42,940 bases of DNA from a virus: IMG/VR virus record IMGVR_UViG_3300045988_008255, one strand, 5' to 3'. Below the pieces are notes generated by a model that saw only the letters and a list, made by a program, of their open reading frames with translations, did not search any database and was not told the DNA's origin. Positions 3,069 to 40,835 of the stretch are shown piece by piece. Numbering within the stretch: position 1 is the first letter of the stretch; the number at the start of each line of letters is the position of its first letter. A program made the translations under genes and the position numbers.

Positions 3069-3785
3069 ATGGGAGATAAAAAGGAATACGTCAAGCTGTG
3101 GCTGAGTTACAGGAGCTATTTCGAGGCGTACAGTGCTGCTGAGGTGGGGCGCTTGGTGCTGGCTGCGATGGATTATCGCGAGTCGGGAGCAGAGCCAGAG
3201 TTCAGCGGGAGTGAACGTTTCATTTGGCCTGCGATTCGACGGGACATTGACGAATCCGTAGCGGCGCAAAAAGCCGTCTCCGCGTCCAGAAGTGAGGCAG
3301 GAAAGCAGGGCGGTCGTCCTGAATCCGAAAAAGCAAATGCTTTTGACGAAAGCAACGAAAAGCAAAAAAAGCAAATGCTTTCCGAGGAAAGCAAAAAAAG
3401 CTATGGACAAAGGAAAAGGACAAAGGAAAAGGACATGGACAGTATTCTTTCCCCCCTTCCCCCCACACTGCGCGAAGCAGTTGAAAAATGGGTGGCGTAC
3501 AAGGGAGAACGACGGGAGGAGTATAAGCCTGTTGGCCTGCAAAGCCTTGTCACACAGATCACGAAAGCCGCAGAGGAATATGACGAGGCTACAATGATCG
3601 ACGTGATAACCCGCTCTATGGCCGCAAATTACAAGGGGATCGTGTTTGACTGGCTGAAAGAGGCCAGCACACGCCCTGCGGCGCTTGGCCGCGCAGCAAA
3701 GCCCGGCTACGGCGTGCAGCAGCACCACGACGAACTTAATCCGATGGAACGCGCAGCCGTGGACAGGCTGCTGGAAGGAGGATAA
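3069..3785 (+). CDS. Replication-organizer-like protein (function tentative)
   Basis: 238 aa from ATG 3069. The longer track ORF from 2640 overlaps ssb in another frame. Two globular halves are joined by a K/E/S-rich linker that carries DNA iterons. Follows ssb. Confidence 0.4.
   Translation: MGDKKEYVKLWLSYRSYFEAYSAAEVGRLVLAAMDYRESGAEPEFSGSERFIWPAIRRDIDESVAAQKAVSASRSEAGKQGGRPESEKANAFDESNEKQKKQMLSEESKKSYGQRKRTKEKDMDSILSPLPPTLREAVEKWVAYKGERREEYKPVGLQSLVTQITKAAEEYDEATMIDVITRSMAANYKGIVFDWLKEASTRPAALGRAAKPGYGVQQHHDELNPMERAAVDRLLEGG
3301..3440. repeat. Iteron-like array (AAAGCAA x6, inverted repeat AAAAGCA-aa-TGCTTTT x2, 13-bp tandem GGACAAAGGAAAA x2): candidate origin
   Basis: Read directly. AAAGCAA-type units sit near 3330, 3348, 3357, 3368, 3387 and 3396. 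Tandem 13-mers at 3405-3417 and 3418-3430. Locally AT-rich, inside the linker of the 3069..3785 gene. Confidence 0.5.
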
Positions 3786-9912: not shown

Positions 9913-11149
9913 TGTTCGGTTGTCAGAAAAAATCGGCCCTGCCTTTTATAGTGTGGCGCGTGACGTATTCCGGCACGGCCATACACACTACGACGAGAGC
10001 GGCGGGCGCGGCTCCCTGAAATCCTCGTTCGTGTCCATCATTGTCCCAACCCTGCTGATGCAGGAGGAAAACAAAAACTGTCATGCGTTGGTGCTTCGCA
10101 AGGTTGCAAATACGATACGCGATAGTGTTTATGCGCAGTATGTCTGGGCAATTGGAGAACTCGGCGCGGCGGAATATTGGGAAGCCAAAGTCTCCCCGAT
10201 GGAGCTGATTTATAAGCCAACCGGGCAGAAGATCATGTTCCGGGGCGCAGACGACCCGATGAAGATTAAATCCATCAAGGTCCCGTTTGGATATATTGCC
10301 GTGACGCACTTTGAAGAAAAAGACCAGTTCGCGGGGCGTGCGGAAATACGAACGATCTTACAGTCTACAATGCGCGGCGGCTCTAAGTTCTGGAACTTTG
10401 AAAGCTATAACCCGCCGATCAGCCGCGACAACTGGGCAAACAAGGACAGCTCGGAAGAACGAGCTGACCGGATGTGCCACAAGTCAACATATCTGCAAGC
10501 GCCACCTGAATGGTTGGGGCAGCAGTTCCTTGATGAAGCCGAACACCTGAAGGCCACAGACGAGCGGGCATATCAGCATGAGTATCTCGGTATTCCGGTC
10601 GGCACAGGCGGAAATGTGTTTGAGAATTTGGAACTGCGAGAGATTACCGACGAGGAAATCAGCCGCTTTGATAGGATTTATCAGGGCGTGGACTACGGCT
10701 GGTTCCCTGACCCGTTTGCATTTATCCGCGTGCATTACGACAAGACGCGGGAAACGATCTACCTGATAGACGAAATATATCAAAACAAGCTTTCCAACGA
10801 GCAGAGCGCGGGCATGATTAAGGCAAAAGGCTACACCGACGCTTATATCATCTGCGACAGCGCGGAGCCTAAAAGCGTTGCGGACTTCCGCTCGATGGGG
10901 CTACCCGCCAAAGCTGCCGTAAAAGGCCCTGACAGCGTGGCGTACGGCATGAAGTGGCTACAGCGCCGGAAGATTGTCGTTGACCGCAGGCGCACGCCGC
11001 ACGCTTACGACGAGTTTGTGAACTACGAGTACGACCGTGACAAAGACGGAAACTTTATCAGCGGCTACCCAGACGAAAAGAACCATTTGATAGACGCACT
11101 GCGCTATGCAGTTGAGCCAATTAGCCGCAGAATGGGAGTTATCGCATGA
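9905..11149 (+). CDS. terL: Terminase large subunit (PBSX/Terminase_3-like)
   Basis: 414 aa. Position and length fit; Walker-like GGRGSLKS; nuclease half with conserved D/E. Overlaps terS and portal. Confidence 0.85.
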   Translation: MSDVRLSEKIGPAFYSVARDVFRHGHTHYDESGGRGSLKSSFVSIIVPTLLMQEENKNCHALVLRKVANTIRDSVYAQYVWAIGELGAAEYWEAKVSPMELIYKPTGQKIMFRGADDPMKIKSIKVPFGYIAVTHFEEKDQFAGRAEIRTILQSTMRGGSKFWNFESYNPPISRDNWANKDSSEERADRMCHKSTYLQAPPEWLGQQFLDEAEHLKATDERAYQHEYLGIPVGTGGNVFENLELREITDEEISRFDRIYQGVDYGWFPDPFAFIRVHYDKTRETIYLIDEIYQNKLSNEQSAGMIKAKGYTDAYIICDSAEPKSVADFRSMGLPAKAAVKGPDSVAYGMKWLQRRKIVVDRRRTPHAYDEFVNYEYDRDKDGNFISGYPDEKNHLIDALRYAVEPISRRMGVIA

Positions 11150-12576
11150 GTAATGCAGTAATCCAAAAACTGAATGAATTAGGCTATTCCACTATCCCCG
11201 AAGAGTTTTACGGTAAGGTGACGGAGTGGAAAAGCTGGTATCAGGGCAACGTAAAAGGATTCCACAGCTACCGCGTGCGCAACGGCGAGAGCATGGTTAG
11301 TTGCAAGCGGTACTCTCTCGGCATGGGGAAGAAGCTGTGCGAGGATTGGGCCAATCTGCTGATGAACGAAAAAGTTCAGATTACTCTTGAGGGGCAGAAG
11401 GAGCAGGAGTTCATCGACCGCGTACTTACCGAGAACAATTTCACGGTCAAGGCAAATGAGATGCAGGAAATGAAGTCCGCGCTCGGCACGGTGGCATATA
11501 TCCCCCGCGTCATCGGGCAGGAGATCAACGAGGGTGGCGAGATCGTCCCCGGCAACGCATCCGGTATCATCCTGGACTATGTGACCATCGAAAACATTTA
11601 CCCGCTGGCATGGCAGAACGGATTTATCAGTGAGTGCGCGTTTTCCTCCGTGGTAACACGCAACGGCCGTGATTATCTATATCTCCAAATCCACCACAAA
11701 GACGGACGCGGCGACTACGTCATCGACAATCGCATTTACCGTTATGATAACAAAATGTTGTCTGACGAACAGTTACCCAACGTAAAAGGATTTGAGAACA
11801 TTCCGCCTGTTGTGCATACTGGCAGCGACAAGAGGCAGTTTGTTATTGACCGGCTCAACATTGCCAACAATTTCAACTATCTCCTGCCGACCGGCATTGC
11901 TGTGTACGCAAACGCCATTGACGTGCTGCAAGGCGTGGACATTGCATACGACAGCTATGTAAATGAGTTCCGGCTGGGCAAAAAGCGTATCATGGTCAAG
12001 CCCTCTGCGGCAAAGTATTTGGACGGTGAGCCGGTGTTCGACCCGTCCGATGTGGCGTTCTATGTGCTGCCGGAGGATGTCAACGACGGCGCTGTTATTA
12101 CACCCATCGACATGACCTTGAGGACAGCGGAGCATAACACGGGCATCCAAGACCAACTCAATATCCTGTCCAGCAAGTGCGGATTTGGTGAGACCTATTA
12201 TCGCTTTGACGGCGGCAGCGTTGCAACGGCTACGCAGGTCATCAGCGAGAACAGCACCATGTTTCGCACGATCAAAAAGCATGAGATCATCCTCGAAGAT
12301 GCACTGGTGGAGCTGTGCCGCATTCTTCTCCGCCTGGGTAACACCGCGATGGGTGCCGGGCTGAATGAAGACGTGGAAATCAGCATTGATTTCGACGATA
12401 GTATCATTGAGGACAAGCAAACCGACTTTTCCCGCGATATGCAGCTTCTCAGTGCGGGCATTTTGAACGATTGGGAGTTCCGCATGAAGTGGATGAATGA
12501 GGACGAGGCGACCGCAAAGGCGGCGCTGCCGAAGATGCAGGACATGACGACCGAAGGACAACAGGAGGTAGAGTAA
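11146..12576 (+). CDS. Portal protein (SPP1 gp6-like)
   Basis: 476 aa directly after terL. N-terminal ...YGKV.EWKSWYQG...FH.Y pattern as in A118/SPP1-type portals. Confidence 0.8.
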   Translation: MSNAVIQKLNELGYSTIPEEFYGKVTEWKSWYQGNVKGFHSYRVRNGESMVSCKRYSLGMGKKLCEDWANLLMNEKVQITLEGQKEQEFIDRVLTENNFTVKANEMQEMKSALGTVAYIPRVIGQEINEGGEIVPGNASGIILDYVTIENIYPLAWQNGFISECAFSSVVTRNGRDYLYLQIHHKDGRGDYVIDNRIYRYDNKMLSDEQLPNVKGFENIPPVVHTGSDKRQFVIDRLNIANNFNYLLPTGIAVYANAIDVLQGVDIAYDSYVNEFRLGKKRIMVKPSAAKYLDGEPVFDPSDVAFYVLPEDVNDGAVITPIDMTLRTAEHNTGIQDQLNILSSKCGFGETYYRFDGGSVATATQVISENSTMFRTIKKHEIILEDALVELCRILLRLGNTAMGAGLNEDVEISIDFDDSIIEDKQTDFSRDMQLLSAGILNDWEFRMKWMNEDEATAKAALPKMQDMTTEGQQEVE

Positions 12577-35823: not shown

Positions 35824-36927
35824 TCACTCTGGCGATTCGTTTTGCAACTGATTTACGGCATCGACCATGCCTTTCATGTCCGGGTGTACATACCGTTGGG
35901 TAGTCGTTATCTTCGTGTGGCGCATGATTTCCTTGATCGTAAACGGGTCGATATTTTTCATCGCGAGGGCTGTAGCGGTTGTATGGCGGCATGAGTAAGG
36001 TGGTAGCTTTTGCACTCCGGCAAGCTCCAAACACTCATAATATCTCTTGTAAAAATTATCTTTGTTTATGCAGCAGATATTTCCGACGCGCGATTTGCTT
36101 TCTTCGCATAGTTCATGCAGCACCGGCGCAACGAAATCCGGGAAGACCATAGGCGTTTCCTTCCGCTTCTTTGTCTTTATGCCGCCTCGGACGATCTCAT
36201 TCTTTTCAAAGTCAATCATATCTTTCTTGAGCTTCAGAAGCTCACCGGGCATCATGCCGGTATAAATCATCGTTAAAATAAACCCAACGAAGTGGTCTTT
36301 TGCATACGCTTCCCATAGCTTTTTTACGTCGGCGTCGGTAAACGGTTCCGGCGATTTCTCTTCCAATTCCGGAAGCTTTATGTACTTTGCAAGATTCACG
36401 GTTGTCTGCTTTTCTGCGATTGCGAGGTTATAACAGTGGGAAAGGACGGTTTTCATATCTTTCCGTGTGTAATAGGTGCTGGCGTTGCGGTCGATAACAT
36501 CCTGTATCTGCGCGATGGTAAGCGCGTCTATCTCACGGTCGGCGATTTCTCTCATGCGCTCGAAAGCCTTTTCCGCCGCTCCCTGACGATCAGCCGATAA
36601 GGACAGATAATCCCCACGCAGATATGTTTTGTAGTATTCTCTGAGAGTGGGGATTCGCTGCTCTTCCTTCGGAGGGTTTGCTGCATATTGGAGCGCGGCA
36701 CGCTTTGACGTAAAGCCTCCCTTTGTCTTCATCTTTTGATGGAGTTTGCCGTTTTCGTCAAGGTACGTCTTTTCAGTCCACCGGGCAGTCCACGTTTTCC
36801 CACGCTGGTAGGCGCTTCCCTGCCCGTTCCCGCGTGTCCGGTTTCGCCGCGCTTCCTGTTTTTTTCCGCACCAGCAACAGTAGGGCGCGCCGTCTGGGAT
36901 TTCTTTTTTACACTTGATGCACTCCAT
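35824..36927 (-). CDS. int: Tyrosine integrase with N-terminal zinc ribbon
   Basis: 367 aa from ATG 36927 (SD GGAGG; track start 36939 is GTG). CIKCKK..CCWCG ribbon. Catalytic-region motifs SCRHTTATAL and MRHTKITTTQRYVH. Confidence 0.9.
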   Translation of the reverse strand: MECIKCKKEIPDGAPYCCWCGKKQEARRNRTRGNGQGSAYQRGKTWTARWTEKTYLDENGKLHQKMKTKGGFTSKRAALQYAANPPKEEQRIPTLREYYKTYLRGDYLSLSADRQGAAEKAFERMREIADREIDALTIAQIQDVIDRNASTYYTRKDMKTVLSHCYNLAIAEKQTTVNLAKYIKLPELEEKSPEPFTDADVKKLWEAYAKDHFVGFILTMIYTGMMPGELLKLKKDMIDFEKNEIVRGGIKTKKRKETPMVFPDFVAPVLHELCEESKSRVGNICCINKDNFYKRYYECLELAGVQKLPPYSCRHTTATALAMKNIDPFTIKEIMRHTKITTTQRYVHPDMKGMVDAVNQLQNESPE

Positions 36928-37483
36928 GCTTCCCTCCACGTTCTTTTCGGATCGCGTAGAAAGTAATTGCCGAAGCCAGCGCTGAACCTACGATCAGGGC
37001 AATGCAAACCCATGCAGCTACGGACAAATCTCCATCGCGAATGAGGCCTGCGCTCCGACTCTGCGCATCCGTCACAAGGCAGGCAATCAGGGAAAAGGAG
37101 AGCAGCATACAAAACAGGGCGAGGACGTAACACATTGTATGTGTAGACTTTATCTGTGCGCTTTGCGCGGCCGCTGTTGCCTCCAGCTTGGCGTTTTCAA
37201 GCTCGACATGATGGATCTGCTTGGTCAGCTTTTCCGGGCTTCCGACGCGATTTTCAAGGCCGAACAGCTCGTCGAGCGACAACCCGAGCGTTTTGCATAG
37301 CGCAGCCGAGTTGTAAAGCCGTGGATCCGCTTGTGTTCCAGCGTATAATCGGCTCACGGCAGAGAAGGAAACGCCGGACTCGTTCGACAGCTCCTCCAAC
37401 GTCATCCCGCTTGCATCTTTTGCCCTTCTGATCTTCCCCTGATACGCGCCGATAAACGGCGCGAGATCCTGTATTGCGGACAT
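36908..37483 (-). CDS. Membrane-anchored XRE-family HTH regulator (two C-terminal TM helices)
   Basis: 191 aa. MTLEELSNESGVSFSAVSRLYAG HTH, coiled-coil linker, TMs CYVLALFCMLLSFSLIACLV and AAWVCIALIVGSALASAITFYAI. Overlaps the int start by 20 nt. Confidence 0.75.
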   Translation of the reverse strand: MSAIQDLAPFIGAYQGKIRRAKDASGMTLEELSNESGVSFSAVSRLYAGTQADPRLYNSAALCKTLGLSLDELFGLENRVGSPEKLTKQIHHVELENAKLEATAAAQSAQIKSTHTMCYVLALFCMLLSFSLIACLVTDAQSRSAGLIRDGDLSVAAWVCIALIVGSALASAITFYAIRKERGGKHGVHQV

Positions 37484-39707: not shown

Positions 39708-40037
39708 TCACATCAGCTTTAGCGCTTCCGCGATAAGCCCCGCAAGCTTTTCGCATTGCTCATCCGACAAACCATCAATTAAATCGCGGAGCTTCTGCTT
39801 CGGCTCGCTCACCGCCCCATCCTTCGGGATGGGGTCTTTTTTTATGCCTTTGCCCATCAGTTCTTCTACTGTTACGCCGAAGTAGTCGGCGATTTTTTGC
39901 GCATTTACGTCAGAGGGTTTTGTCTTCCGCGCTTTCCAACAGCTTATTGTTGACTTGTCAATTCCGAGTTCTCGGCCAACGTATGCAGGGGTTTTGTTTA
40001 CAGAAGCGCAAAGCGCAACAAAGTTGTCATAAAACAC
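39708..40037 (-). CDS. XRE/cI-like repressor
   Basis: 109 aa. TPAYVGRELGIDKSTISCWKARKTKP HTH. GTG start at 40037 with GAGGTG 8 nt upstream and no in-frame ATG near it. Confidence 0.75.
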   Translation of the reverse strand: MFYDNFVALCASVNKTPAYVGRELGIDKSTISCWKARKTKPSDVNAQKIADYFGVTVEELMGKGIKKDPIPKDGAVSEPKQKLRDLIDGLSDEQCEKLAGLIAEALKLM

Positions 40038-40097
40038 AATAATACACCTCTGGAATTGTTAAATACGACGAAAGTTGAATTAGTTTGCAAATAGCGG

Positions 40098-40126
40098 TTG
40101 ACAGTTGAGAATGTTTGATGTATTAT
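40098..40126 (+). promoter_or_regulatory. Rightward near-consensus promoter TTGACA-17-TATTAT
   Basis: Read directly. -35 at 40098-40103, -10 at 40121-40126. The first SD-led rightward ORF is about 500 nt away (40635). Confidence 0.55.
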
Positions 40127-40211
40127 TGCCTTGTGGTTGAAAAAGTTTGCAACAGACAAGACCAAAGCAAATCAACGCTTGCGCCAATGCTAATGTGTTT
40201 CTCGCAAATTC

Positions 40212-40240
40212 ATAGTAGCACAAACAGTAAACAATTTCAA
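40212..40240 (-). promoter_or_regulatory. Leftward promoter TTGAAA-17-(TGc)TACTAT
   Basis: Minus strand. -35 at 40240-40235 and extended -10 at 40217-40212. Faces the rightward promoter. Confidence 0.45.
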
Positions 40241-40481
40241 CAATAAATTTCAAAAGTTGACTGCGGCGAAAAGAAAAGCCGCCCGTGGTTCGTTCACGAG
40301 CGGGTTTCCCCAGAGTTGTTTACCAGAACGCGCTGCACAGGATGGTCGTCTGCATTACTTTGTATCCGTCCGAATTGGTAGAGTTCTTTCCACCGGCTCG
40401 GCAATGCCATCCTGACACAAAACGAACTTACGCTTCTATGACGCGCCGCTCACTTTGGCAGTTCTGGCGCTGCCCCTTGCC

Positions 40482-40538
40482 CTAACGCATCACGCCGTTT
40501 CTTTGGTCTGGAACTGGCAAGTTCAAAAGTTTGGTCAT
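40482..40538 (-). CDS. SD-led 18-codon ORF (MTKLLNLPVPDQRNGVMR)
   Basis: AGGAGG (40552-40547) lies 8 nt before ATG 40538, with TAG at 40484-40482. About 30 nt downstream of the leftward promoter at 40578-40607. Confidence 0.25.
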   Translation of the reverse strand: MTKLLNLPVPDQRNGVMR

Positions 40539-40577
40539 GAAAACCACCTCCTGAATTTACCTAAAAGGGCTAATGGC

Positions 40578-40607
40578 AGTATAGCACGTCTGGGGCGTTG
40601 CAGTCAA
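40578..40607 (-). promoter_or_regulatory. Leftward near-consensus promoter TTGACT-18-(TGc)TATACT
   Basis: Minus strand. -35 at 40607-40602 and extended -10 at 40583-40578. Back-to-back with the cro-like gene. Confidence 0.55.
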
Positions 40608-40634
40608 CAATTTTAACAGAATGGAGGTGTGTAT

Positions 40635-40835
40635 ATGCCTGAAAAATGGACAGGCGTACTGATCGGGAAAATGCACAATGCGCGTGTTTCATACGACGAT
40701 CTTGCCGCAGAGCTTGGACTTACAAAAGGCTATCTGTCCATGATCTTGAACGGGAAAAGAAATCCGCCGGGTGCGAGGAAGCGCTTGGAAGACGCGGTTA
40801 AGGCCGTGATCGAACGAAGAAAGGAGGAAAAATGA
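40635..40835 (+). CDS. Cro-like small HTH protein
   Basis: 66 aa from ATG 40635 after GGAGG. VSYDDLAAELGLTKGYLSMILNGKRNP HTH. Confidence 0.65.
   Translation: MPEKWTGVLIGKMHNARVSYDDLAAELGLTKGYLSMILNGKRNPPGARKRLEDAVKAVIERRKEEK

What the first reader, a model, noticed from the sequence alone, without database searches (positions are those of the whole stretch)
40038..40634. 590-bp non-coding switch region with near-consensus promoters firing toward each other
The cI-like and cro-like genes are separated by 590 bp with no convincing ORF. Three strong promoter matches are present. The rightward one is TTGACA-17-TATTAT at 40098-40126, only 60 nt from the repressor start but about 500 nt from the cro-like start. 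The leftward ones are TTGAAA-17-TGcTACTAT at 40240-40212 and TTGACT-18-TGcTATACT at 40607-40578, the latter right next to the cro-like gene. If active, rightward and leftward transcription converge rather than diverge. Transcripts would overlap by about 70 nt (the 40133-40205 pair) and about 440 nt (40133-40571). That implies transcriptional interference or antisense control, as in coliphage 186/P2 face-to-face promoters or the pCF10 prgQ/prgX locus, but over a much longer interval. The 40241-40577 segment has coding-like GC and a long-range inverted repeat (CAGGATGG 40339-40346 with CCATCCTG 40408-40415, plus GCATT/AATGC), so it may also encode a structured RNA.
Basis: partly seen in the sequence, partly recalled or inferred. 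Interest (0 to 1): 0.65.

Follow-up and report, generated by a model that had tools for sequence, protein, structure and literature searches.

The report
FuFi-1 RNA gene inside phage switch
The "empty" 590 bases between a gut phage's repressor gene and its cro-like gene hold a separately transcribed copy of FuFi-1, a known structured RNA of unknown function, and the head-on promoter layout around it recurs in unrelated relatives, which gives this orphan RNA a testable setting.

Summary
But the gap is not empty. The minus strand 40489..40273 is a full-length FuFi-1 RNA (Rfam RF02986, 101.8 bits against a threshold of 59.6), ending in its own terminator.

The leftward promoter beside cro (40607-40578) drives this RNA, not the repressor. 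Between that promoter and the Rfam model lies a conserved hairpin (40562..40509). It encloses a strong ribosome-binding site and the start of an 18-codon ORF. The hairpin accompanies 21 FuFi-1 units and occurs nowhere else in the 260 kb searched.

The second leftward promoter (40240-40212) serves the repressor. The only credible rightward promoter (40098-40126) is bracketed by two 17-bp repeats. To reach cro it must cross both leftward units. The same geometry recurs in four unrelated sister switch regions, one of which lacks FuFi-1. Sister phages carry small protein genes in the same slot.

Across about 20 sequence groups, FuFi-1 lies beside the cI/cro genes, almost always antisense to the early genes. 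Promoter activity and transcriptional interference remain untested.

The parts
39708..40037 (-). cI-like repressor gene (109 aa, HTH_3)
   Evidence: HTH_3 E 1e-7; PHROG transcriptional regulator/repressor. The identical protein occurs on human-gut phage contigs.
40074..40090 (.). Operator-like 17-bp repeat, left copy (GTTGAATTAGTTTGCAA), just upstream of the -35 of the rightward promoter
   Evidence: There are two copies matching GTTGAAnnAGTTTGCAA, 62 bp apart. No other match with fewer than 2 mismatches exists in 42.9 kb.
40098..40126 (+). Rightward (lytic, P_R-like) promoter TTGACA-17-TATTAT, predicted start about 40133
   Evidence: 11/12. It is the only credible + strand promoter upstream of cro. 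Equivalent opposing promoters occur in L174, L189, L183, L047 and L008.
40136..40152 (.). Operator-like 17-bp repeat, right copy (GTTGAAAAAGTTTGCAA), just downstream of the -10
40212..40240 (-). Leftward promoter for the repressor (TTGAAA-17-TGcTACTAT), predicted start about 40205. It faces the rightward promoter, with about 72 bp between the two start sites.
   Evidence: 9/12 plus TG. A same-strand promoter directly after the FuFi-1 terminator also occurs in L174, L189 and L183, each at 11/12.
40256..40267 (.). Inner copy of the cassette-flanking inverted repeat (TTGACTGCGGCG on +). Its partner is 40596-40607 (TTGACTGCAACG on -).
   Evidence: Read from the sequence. Perfect 17-nt and 17/19 versions flank the cassettes in L189 and L008. 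Mosaic breakpoints fall at these repeats.
40270..40571 (-). Predicted FuFi-1 transcription unit (about 300 nt), running from the promoter's predicted start to the end of the terminator U-tract
   Evidence: Inferred from the promoter, the terminator and the two covariance-model matches. Fold energy is -108.6 kcal/mol, z = -2.85.
40273..40489 (-). FuFi-1 RNA (Rfam RF02986), full model positions 1-175, including the intrinsic terminator (stem 40303-40279, then CUUUUCUUUU)
   Evidence: 101.8 bits, gathering score 59.6, E 4e-21. My own model R1 also matches it. Covariation is shown.
40339..40415 (-). Enlarged P4 hairpin of FuFi-1 (about 60-nt insertion).
   Evidence: Alignment and fold. This is the most variable segment among 27 close relatives and is swapped for a different insert in L006/L007.
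40482..40538 (-). 18-codon ORF MTKLLNLPVPDQRNGVMR*, preceded by AGGAGG. Its stop lies in the 5' strand of FuFi-1 stem P1.
   Evidence: An equivalent ORF with an ATG/TTG/GTG start (ACG in one) occurs in 23 of the 28 units tabulated, which fall into 17 distinct peptide types. Translation is unproven.
40509..40562 (-). Conserved 5' hairpin of the FuFi-1 unit, outside the Rfam model: GGUAA..AGGAG.UGGUU-loop(AUG)-GACCA..CUUUU..UUGCC. It sequesters the ribosome-binding site and the start codon.
   Evidence: Model R2 scores 71 bits here. It hits once upstream of each of 21 FuFi-1 units and nowhere else in 260 kb. Pairs are 93% formed against 31-58% in slid controls. Independent folds agree.
40578..40607 (-). 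Promoter of the FuFi-1 unit (TTGACT-18-TGcTATACT), back-to-back with the cro-like gene start
   Evidence: 10/12 plus TG. A promoter at the same relative position occurs in every FuFi-1 group that has upstream sequence.
40635..40835 (+). cro-like gene (66 aa, HTH_3), first gene of the rightward operon, about 500 nt from the only rightward promoter

Best explanation
The interval is the immunity switch of a temperate human-gut phage. An autonomous RNA gene sits in a cargo slot inside that switch.

On the repressor strand there are two units. Unit 1 runs: promoter 40607-40578; a 5' hairpin holding a ribosome-binding site and a start codon; the FuFi-1 RNA; then an intrinsic terminator. It should give a ~300-nt RNA (40571..40270). 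Unit 2 is promoter 40240-40212, which drives the repressor mRNA through a ~168-nt leader.

On the other strand, one strong promoter (40098-40126) lies next to the repressor gene and is bracketed by two 17-bp repeats, the likely repressor operators. It is the only available promoter for the cro-like gene 500 nt away.

Proposed working (inferred). In a lysogen the repressor shuts the rightward promoter, and both leftward units are expressed, so FuFi-1 RNA accumulates. After induction or infection, rightward polymerases run head-on first into the repressor promoter (about 72 bp between start sites, as in coliphage 186/P2). They then cross the whole FuFi-1 unit. The resulting cro mRNA has a leader fully complementary to FuFi-1 RNA.

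I therefore read FuFi-1 here as a lysogeny-side RNA. Its transcription and transcript oppose early lytic expression. Its conserved fold implies a further, still unknown, partner.

Shown: the identity and anatomy of the RNA gene, the sequence-level promoter geometry, and its recurrence. Inferred: promoter activity, operator assignment, interference, and any function of the RNA.
For: Identity. There is a full-length FuFi-1 match well above the Rfam threshold. Across 23 units, the helices are 92% paired against 31-46% in slid controls, and 35 of 39 pairs show changes on both sides.

Own promoter and terminator. Both are found in the window. A promoter at the same relative position occurs in all groups with upstream sequence.

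The 5' hairpin is specific to FuFi-1 units.

The unit is self-contained. L049-L051 share only 40610-40243, next to a different repressor and cro. L008-L011 and L025 keep both flanks but replace 40600-40284 with a phrog_5079 small-protein gene that has its own terminator. L047 has a 73-aa ORF in the slot.

Geometry. There is no other rightward promoter before cro. Opposing near-consensus promoter pairs occur at the same relative places in non-homologous regions. In L174 they score 12/12 against 11/12, in L189 9/12 against 11/12, and in L183 11/12 against 11/12. In L047 a 12/12 promoter next to cI lies about 510 nt from cro.

Operators. Two 17-bp repeats bracket the rightward promoter.

Context rule. 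The upstream neighbour lies on the opposite strand in 18 of 19 groups. The downstream neighbour is also opposite in 14 of about 20. A cI-like gene lies on the FuFi-1 strand within 2 kb in 11 groups.
Against: No expression data exist, and all promoters are consensus matches only.

In the window the promoter count is only about 1.4 sd above shuffles.

Close relatives are too similar to show selective conservation of the hexamers. One of 36 hexamer positions varies, against a background of 0.05-0.14 per position.

The slot accepts unrelated cargo. So the head-on layout may be a property of the slot rather than of FuFi-1, and the RNA may act on something unrelated to the switch.

Phages of the other arrangement (for example L178) have classical back-to-back cI/cro promoters, with FuFi-1 downstream of cro. 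So the face-to-face repressor/lytic pair is not a general companion of FuFi-1.

The strong sequence conservation of FuFi-1 is more than an antisense role needs.

No complementary target sites were found elsewhere in the window; the best is 12 nt, E 0.6.

In the rightward direction, the FuFi-1 terminator hairpin is followed by only three U. No rightward terminator is called, so a roadblock role is weak here.
Confidence: 0.6

Rival explanations
1. Pure accessory cargo. The FuFi-1 unit is a moron-like, lysogeny-expressed gene whose RNA acts in trans on a host or competing-phage target. It has no role in the cI/cro decision, and its antisense position is simply how lysogeny cargo is insulated from lytic transcription.
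For: The unit has its own promoter and terminator.

Sister phages carry a phrog_5079 small basic protein gene or a 73-aa ORF with a hydrophobic, membrane-like tail in the same slot.

The unit is bracketed by inverted repeats, and mosaic breakpoints fall there.

The RNA is conserved across phages with unrelated regulators.

Tandem duplicate units exist in L124, L093 and L156.
Against: Ordinary morons are scattered around phage genomes. FuFi-1 is found next to cI/cro in about 20 sequence groups and antisense to early genes in 18 of 19. That argues for coupling to early transcription. This rival also names no target.
Confidence: 0.3
2. Conventional switch. The rightward promoter at 40098-40126 is inactive or serves something else, and cro is transcribed from an unrecognised promoter near 40571-40634. 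If so, nothing converges over the FuFi-1 gene.
For: The promoter scans only recognise sigma-70-type consensus. The interval 40608-40634 is the most variable part of the region outside the P4 insert among close relatives, at 0.44 variable sites per position. Phages such as L178 and L114 have a lytic promoter right beside cro.
Against: The relaxed scan finds nothing usable on the + strand after 40126. The 11/12 promoter is bracketed by two repeats, as a regulated promoter would be. The same 'lytic promoter beside cI, far from cro' layout recurs in L174, L189, L183, L047 and L008.
Confidence: 0.12
3. The product is the peptide. The 18-codon ORF (MTKLLNLPVP...) is translated and is the functional gene, and FuFi-1 is its structured 3' UTR or stabiliser.
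For: A strong ribosome-binding site sits 7-9 nt before a start codon that varies only among ATG, TTG and GTG, with one ACG. It is never CTG in the other 22 of 23 units. The N-terminal pattern M-T/K-x-L/F-L-x-L-P-V/A-P is conserved, and Pro codon third positions vary.
Against: The same nucleotides form a conserved hairpin that explains the pattern. The ribosome-binding site pairs with CUUUU. The bases around the start codon pair. The 'Pro codons' pair with the 5' leader and co-vary with it.

Leu codon 5 is invariant TTG, and codon 9 always ends in T. That is a nucleotide-level constraint, not a coding one.

An extra T shifts the frame in L106 and L092 while GTTC is kept.

The C-terminus and length (11-26 aa) are not conserved.
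Confidence: 0.1
4. Cis-acting leader. FuFi-1 is a riboswitch-like attenuator whose terminator controls read-through from the 40607 promoter into the repressor gene.
For: In the window, L174, L189 and L183, the unit lies directly upstream of a same-strand gene and ends in a terminator. That gene is the repressor in the window.
Against: In 14 of about 20 groups the next gene downstream is on the opposite strand. The repressor has its own promoter after the terminator. The discoverers noted that the motif is only rarely in potential 5' UTRs (PMC5737381).
Confidence: 0.05
5. Decayed protein gene. The coding-like GC content reflects a pseudogene between cI and cro.
For: GC content is coding-like, and several 30-66-aa ORFs are present.
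Against: There is a full-length covariance-model match with compensatory changes in every helix. The core is conserved among 27 distinct close relatives, while only the P4 insert varies. No ORF is shared.
Confidence: 0.02

Closest known systems
FuFi-1 RNA motif (Rfam RF02986; Weinberg et al. 2017, PMC5737381)
   Same: There is a full-length match above the curated threshold. All helices are present, as are the conserved CAUAGAAG, UGCA and GGUAAACAA..UGGG segments and the 3' intrinsic terminator. The function is unknown, as in the original description, which reported that self-cleavage tests were negative.
   Different: This copy has a ~60-nt insertion in stem P4 and CUCUGGGG in place of AUUUGGG. 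The unit extends about 80 nt upstream of the Rfam model, into a conserved hairpin with a ribosome-binding site and start codon. I did not find that hairpin described.
Face-to-face lytic/lysogenic promoters of coliphage 186 and P2-like phages (PMC7498355 and Callen et al. 2004, cited there)
   Same: The lysogenic promoter lies beyond the lytic promoter, so the two transcripts overlap. The start sites are about 72 bp apart here, against 40-60 bp in P2-like phages. Candidate repressor sites lie at the lytic promoter. A small HTH protein is the first lytic gene.
   Different: The host is a Gram-positive gut bacterium and the regulators are HTH_3 proteins; relatedness to 186 CI/Apl was not tested. 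A second lysogeny-strand unit (FuFi-1 or other cargo) is nested in a ~500-nt lytic leader. I know of no counterpart to that in 186/P2. Interference has not been measured.
Lambda OOP RNA and other phage cis-antisense RNAs (P22 sar). This comparison rests on my own knowledge.
   Same: These are short, terminator-ended RNAs transcribed in the repressor direction from inside the rightward early operon, and so are complementary to the early transcript.
   Different: OOP and sar are small, simple hairpin RNAs whose sequence is dictated by their target. FuFi-1 is a ~160-250-nt multi-helix RNA conserved across phages with unrelated flanks, and it lies opposite non-coding leader or intergenic sequence.
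This comparison rests on my own knowledge.
   Same: Convergent promoters produce long overlapping transcripts, and one product is a discrete regulatory RNA.
   Different: pCF10 is a plasmid conjugation system with peptide-pheromone control. No sequence or protein relationship to it was seen here.
Firmicute 5' stabilisers that use a ribosome-binding site near the 5' end (STAB-SD of cryIIIA, SP82 and ermC leaders). This comparison rests on my own knowledge.
   Same: GAAAGGAG lies close to the 5' end of a non-coding transcript, preceded by a 5'-terminal hairpin.
   Different: Here the site is paired within a hairpin, and a start codon and short ORF follow it. A stabiliser role was not tested.

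Membership tests
FuFi-1 RNA (RF02986) | Covariance-model score at or above the curated gathering score (59.6 bits) over the full model | tested here: met
   101.8 bits, model positions 1-175 of 175, E 4e-21, window 40489..40273 minus.
FuFi-1 RNA (RF02986) | Helices P1, P1a, P2, P3 and P4 supported by compensatory changes | tested here: met
   In 23 units aligned to model R1, 92.1% of cells are paired against 31-46% in slid controls. 35 of 39 pairs show changes on both sides. The alignment is fitted to the model, so it leans toward the structure.
FuFi-1 RNA (RF02986) | Conserved unpaired segments (CAUAGAAG, UGCA, GGUAAACAA...UGGG) | tested here: met
   CAUAGAAG, UGCA and GGUAAACAACUCUGGG are all present. 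The last departs from the AAAUUUGGG consensus at two positions.
FuFi-1 RNA (RF02986) | Rho-independent terminator at the 3' end | tested here: met
   Stem 40303-40279 (9 bp, 7 G-C) followed by CUUUUCUUUU.
FuFi-1 RNA (RF02986) | Occurrence in Firmicutes/Fusobacteria or their phages | tested here: inconclusive
   The host of the window is not identified. The phage occurs in human-gut metagenomes. Other FuFi-1 units were found in Clostridia assemblies: Faecousia, Acutalibacteraceae, Ruminococcoides, Lachnospiraceae and Eubacterium.
186/P2-type face-to-face immunity switch | Lytic and lysogenic promoters convergent, with overlapping transcripts over tens of bp | tested here: met
   This holds at sequence level only. 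Predicted starts are about 40133 (+) and about 40205 (-). The same layout occurs in L174, L189 and L183.
186/P2-type face-to-face immunity switch | Lytic promoter measurably interferes with the lysogenic promoter | not testable with these tools
   This needs promoter-reporter constructs with one promoter inactivated.
186/P2-type face-to-face immunity switch | Repressor operators at the lytic promoter | tested here: inconclusive
   Two 17-bp direct repeats bracket the promoter. Binding was not tested.
186/P2-type face-to-face immunity switch | Regulators homologous to 186 CI/Apl or P2 C/Cox | not tested
   Both regulators here match HTH_3. No comparison with 186/P2 proteins was run. I claim resemblance of layout, not membership.
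Lambda-type back-to-back switch | Divergent promoters sharing one operator region between cI and cro | tested here: not met
   No rightward promoter lies near cro, and the rightward and repressor promoters face each other. By contrast, L178 shows the classical back-to-back pair.

The most novel reading that the evidence does not exclude
FuFi-1 is an immunity-type RNA of temperate Firmicute phages. It is made in lysogens from a unit that is almost always nested antisense in the early lytic operon next to cI/cro. It holds back early lytic expression, by head-on transcription, by pairing with the lytic leader, or through a conserved host partner. Its 5' hairpin, which masks a ribosome-binding site and start codon, couples its folding or stability to ribosome binding. 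That would give a function to a widespread orphan RNA and add an RNA layer to lysis-lysogeny control in gut phages.
Probability: 0.2. Interest if true: 0.8.

Novelty: new variant of a known kind. Interest (0 to 1): 0.55.

Why it matters
FuFi-1 was singled out in 2017 as an RNA whose conservation suggests a sophisticated function, yet nothing in the searchable literature assigns it one. This work adds three things:

- A consistent genomic rule. FuFi-1 lies next to the cI/cro genes of temperate phages, on the repressor strand, antisense to the early genes.
- A fuller picture of the unit: its own promoter, a conserved 5' hairpin holding a ribosome-binding site and start codon, and a terminator.
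- Natural comparison phages. These are sister phages with the same switch but a different cargo in the slot.

Together these make the RNA's role directly testable in a lysogen.

Separately, a 186-like head-on promoter layout recurs in several unrelated switch regions of human-gut phages, enlarged by a cargo slot. That matters to anyone modelling prophage stability and induction in the gut.

Tried and rejected
1. Similar annotated phage. A search of the annotated phage collection found only a 98-bp weak match in an unannotated record.

2. Supplementary text of the FuFi-1 paper. It is not held. A second literature search on the motif names found nothing beyond the 2017 paper.

3. Genome-wide pattern scan for TGCA-N9-10-GGTAAACAANNNTGGG. 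Most of the 101 hits were chance matches in unrelated phyla. Of the 17 loci I scanned with Rfam, 11 held FuFi-1.

4. RNAalifold on a plain MAFFT alignment. It recovered only two helices, so I built the model from five canonical copies with the Rfam structure instead.

5. P4 CI / P1 C4-like trans targets. No complementarity to FuFi-1 beyond chance was found elsewhere in the window; the best is 12 nt, E 0.6.

6. Pseudoknot idea. I considered pairing between the conserved GGUAAACAAAUUUGGG segment and the 5' ACCAAACUUUUG. The window lineage changes the first but not the second, so there is no covariation (read). Rejected.

7. Hexamer conservation among 27 close relatives. Background variation is too low to discriminate.

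8. Coding test of the short ORF. It is ambiguous, because the hairpin explains most of the pattern.
Full report
**What is in the sequence.** The window is a temperate phage. It has an integrase at 35824-36939 (-) and HTH_3 regulators at 36908-37483 (-) and 39708-40037 (-). A 66-aa HTH_3 cro-like gene at 40635-40835 (+) is followed by small rightward genes. The identical repressor sits on 20-46-kb contigs from human-gut metagenomes, where gene callers leave the same ~600 nt empty. That is 3 against 1.3 +/- 1.2 in shuffles.

**The gap holds an RNA gene.** An Rfam scan finds a full-length FuFi-1 RNA (RF02986) on the minus strand, 40489..40273. It scores 101.8 bits against a gathering score of 59.6, with E 4e-21. 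The match ends in the intrinsic terminator that the pattern scan also finds: stem 40303-40279, then CUUUUCUUUU.

[quoted passage not shown] It was rarely in 5' UTRs, negative for self-cleavage, and of unknown function (PMC5737381). No later paper in the searchable library mentions it.

I built a covariance model from five canonical copies and aligned 23 units from phage and bacterial contigs. In that alignment, 92% of cells pair against 31-46% when partners are slid, and 35 of 39 pairs show changes on both sides. The alignment is fitted to the model, which favours the structure, but the margin is large.

**The unit is longer than the Rfam model.** Upstream of the model, every group with enough sequence has three elements in order. 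First comes a sigma-70-type promoter. Then comes a short 5' hairpin. Then comes GAAAGGAG, 7-9 nt before an ATG/TTG/GTG codon that opens an 11-26-codon ORF of the pattern M-T-K-L-L-N-L-P-V-P. In the window this is AGGAGG, ATG at 40538, and MTKLLNLPVPDQRNGVMR*, with its stop inside the 5' strand of P1.

Folding each sequence on its own gives the same long hairpin in most groups. The leader GGCAA pairs with UUGCC. AGGAG pairs with CUUUU. UGGUC pairs with GACCA. The start codon sits in the loop.

A second model of this hairpin hits once upstream of each of 21 FuFi-1 units and nowhere else in 260 kb. In the window it covers 40562..40509 at 71 bits. Pairs are 93% formed against 31-58% in slid controls, but only 5 of 16 show changes on both sides, because the element is so conserved.

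So the ribosome-binding site and start codon are conserved and also masked. Whether the ORF is translated, or the site serves as a ribosome-dependent 5' stabiliser of the kind known in Firmicutes (my own knowledge), is open.

**The unit behaves as a cassette.** Fifty-three IMG/VR relatives of the repressor were fetched. Most carry the whole switch at about 98% identity, and three kinds of mosaic stand out:

- L008-L011 and L025 keep cro, both leftward promoters, the rightward promoter and the repressor. But 40600-40284 is replaced by a 43-aa basic Ser/Lys-rich ORF (phrog_5079) with its own terminator and no FuFi-1.
- L049-L051 share only 40610-40243, next to a different cro and repressor.
- L047 shares neither, and has a 73-aa ORF with a hydrophobic, membrane-like tail in the slot.

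The cassette is bracketed by inverted repeats that include its -35 hexamer. The repeat is a perfect 17 nt in L189, 17/19 in L008 and 10/12 in the window (40607-40596 and 40256-40267). I cannot explain these repeats.

**The head-on geometry is conserved.** A relaxed scan finds no usable rightward promoter between 40127 and cro. The 11/12 promoter at 40098-40126 is bracketed by two copies of GTTGAAnnAGTTTGCAA, at 40074-40090 and 40136-40152. Its predicted start (about 40133) faces the repressor promoter's start (about 40205), about 72 bp away. It would then cross the entire FuFi-1 unit to reach cro.

The regions between the FuFi-1 terminator and the next gene in L174, L189 and L183 do not align with the window beyond the cassette end. 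Yet each has the same three promoters in the same order:

| Locus | FuFi-1 promoter | Same-strand promoter after the terminator | Opposing promoter | Start sites apart |
|---|---|---|---|---|
| L174 | 10/12 | 11/12 | 12/12 | ~65-85 nt |
| L189 | 10/12 | 11/12 | 9/12 | ~65-85 nt |
| L183 | 10/12 | 11/12 | 11/12 | ~65-85 nt |

L047, which has no FuFi-1, has a 12/12 promoter next to cI firing about 510 nt toward cro across its cargo gene. L008 keeps the window's layout around its protein cargo.

The short pair matches the face-to-face layout of P2-like phages: 40-60 bp apart, repressor operators over the lytic promoter, and the lytic promoter interfering with the lysogenic one (PMC7498355).

**A wider rule for FuFi-1.** The 101 FuFi-1 matches collected from phage contigs and Clostridia assemblies fall into 28 sequence groups. 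In 18 of 19 groups with upstream sequence, the neighbouring gene is on the opposite strand and is usually a small HTH protein. In 14 of about 20, the downstream neighbour is also on the opposite strand. In 11, a cI-like gene lies on the FuFi-1 strand within 2 kb, including an HTH_3 plus Peptidase_S24 repressor in L178.

Two layouts occur:

- Window type: cro <- | FuFi-1 -> | cI ->.
- Commoner type: early genes <- | FuFi-1 -> | <- cro | cI ->. This type has classical back-to-back cI/cro promoters.

In both, the RNA gene is nested antisense near the 5' end of the early lytic operon.

**Interpretation.** The following are shown:

- the RNA's identity and anatomy;
- its cassette behaviour;
- the sequence-level geometry and its recurrence;
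- the context rule.

The following are inferred:

- the promoters fire;
- the 17-bp repeats are repressor operators;
- head-on transcription or pairing with the 500-nt cro leader damps lytic expression.

I rate the combined model at 0.6. The main rival, at 0.3, is that FuFi-1 is accessory cargo with an unrelated trans target and that the geometry belongs to the slot. A leader/attenuator role, a peptide-only role, an unseen cro promoter and a decayed gene are less likely, for the reasons given under rival explanations.

**Verdict.** This is a real feature. The RNA is a new member of a known family. The switch is a 186-like layout enlarged by a cargo slot that holds an RNA gene, which I rate as a new variant of a known kind. 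Interest is moderate: nothing here is proven to function, but an orphan RNA gains a precise, testable setting.

Noticed in passing
window 40509-40562 (minus); also L187 10898-10951, L114 2871-2924, L163 7959-8012 and others: A conserved hairpin holding GAAAGGAG and a start codon lies upstream of FuFi-1, outside the Rfam model. It is found with 21 units and nowhere else in 260 kb.
   Followed up: yes
window 40596-40607 and 40256-40267; L189 10075-10091 / 10417-10433; L008 3508-3526 / 3764-3782: Inverted repeats (TTGACTGCGGCG...) bracket the lysogeny-strand cassette whatever its cargo, and they coincide with mosaic breakpoints. Their meaning is unknown: cassette ends, recombination sites or looping operators.
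   Followed up: partly
L008 3592-3723; L187 about 11708-11848: A 43-46-aa basic Ser/Lys-rich protein (phrog_5079, unknown function) occupies the FuFi-1 slot in L008-L011 and L025. In L187 it sits on the FuFi-1 strand a few hundred nt downstream of FuFi-1.
   Followed up: partly
L047 3511-3732: A sister phage without FuFi-1 carries a 73-aa ORF with a hydrophobic, membrane-like tail in the same slot. It is crossed by a 12/12 promoter that fires from beside cI toward cro.
   Followed up: partly
L124 6979-7186 and 7369-7579; L093 5278-5488 and 5671-5878; L156 9028-9306: There are tandem or internally rearranged FuFi-1 units. In L124 and L093 each of the two copies has its own promoter and 5' hairpin.
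   Followed up: no
L187 about 10952-11054; also L163, L178, L246, L114, L070 and L059 upstream of the core: In the short canonical FuFi-1 copies, an extra conserved segment of about 100 nt (..GGCACUCGUAAAAAUGCC.ACC..UCCUU..) lies between the 5' hairpin and the Rfam core. The window lineage lacks it, and there the short ORF runs into P1.
   Followed up: no
window 40339-40415; L006/L007 about 3600-3720: The P4 insertion is the one hypervariable part of the RNA among close relatives. In L006, L007 and the L228 group it is replaced by a different, longer insert.
   Followed up: partly
L180 2790-2903; L170 2469-2583: These are truncated FuFi-1 copies. In L180 the promoter is fused directly to the 3' strand of P1, so the 5' hairpin, the P1 5' strand and P1a are lost.
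   Followed up: no
window 40225-40242 and 40601-40618: An 18-nt direct repeat (CAGTAAACAATTTCAACA / CAGTCAACAATTTTAACA, 89%) overlaps the -35 regions of both leftward promoters. It is a possible shared operator, for example for the cro-like protein.
   Followed up: no
window 40037-40046 and 40119-40128: A perfect 10-nt inverted repeat lies between the repressor start-codon region and the -10 of the rightward promoter. In the long repressor leader it could mask the start site, but a repeat of this size could also arise by chance.
   Followed up: no
L189 10387-10403 (minus); L183 8264-8280 (plus): In these relatives the FuFi-1 terminator hairpin also scores as a terminator when read in the lytic direction (tail AUGCUUUUCC). 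In the window the lytic-direction tail has only three U.
   Followed up: partly
L092 4358-4576 (minus): A HEARO RNA (RF02033, 134.5 bits) lies about 2 kb from a FuFi-1 unit on a Selenomonas contig. This is probably incidental.
   Followed up: no
window 36908-37483 (minus): A second, 191-aa HTH_3 repressor-like gene overlaps the integrase gene start, so the phage carries two candidate repressors.
   Followed up: no
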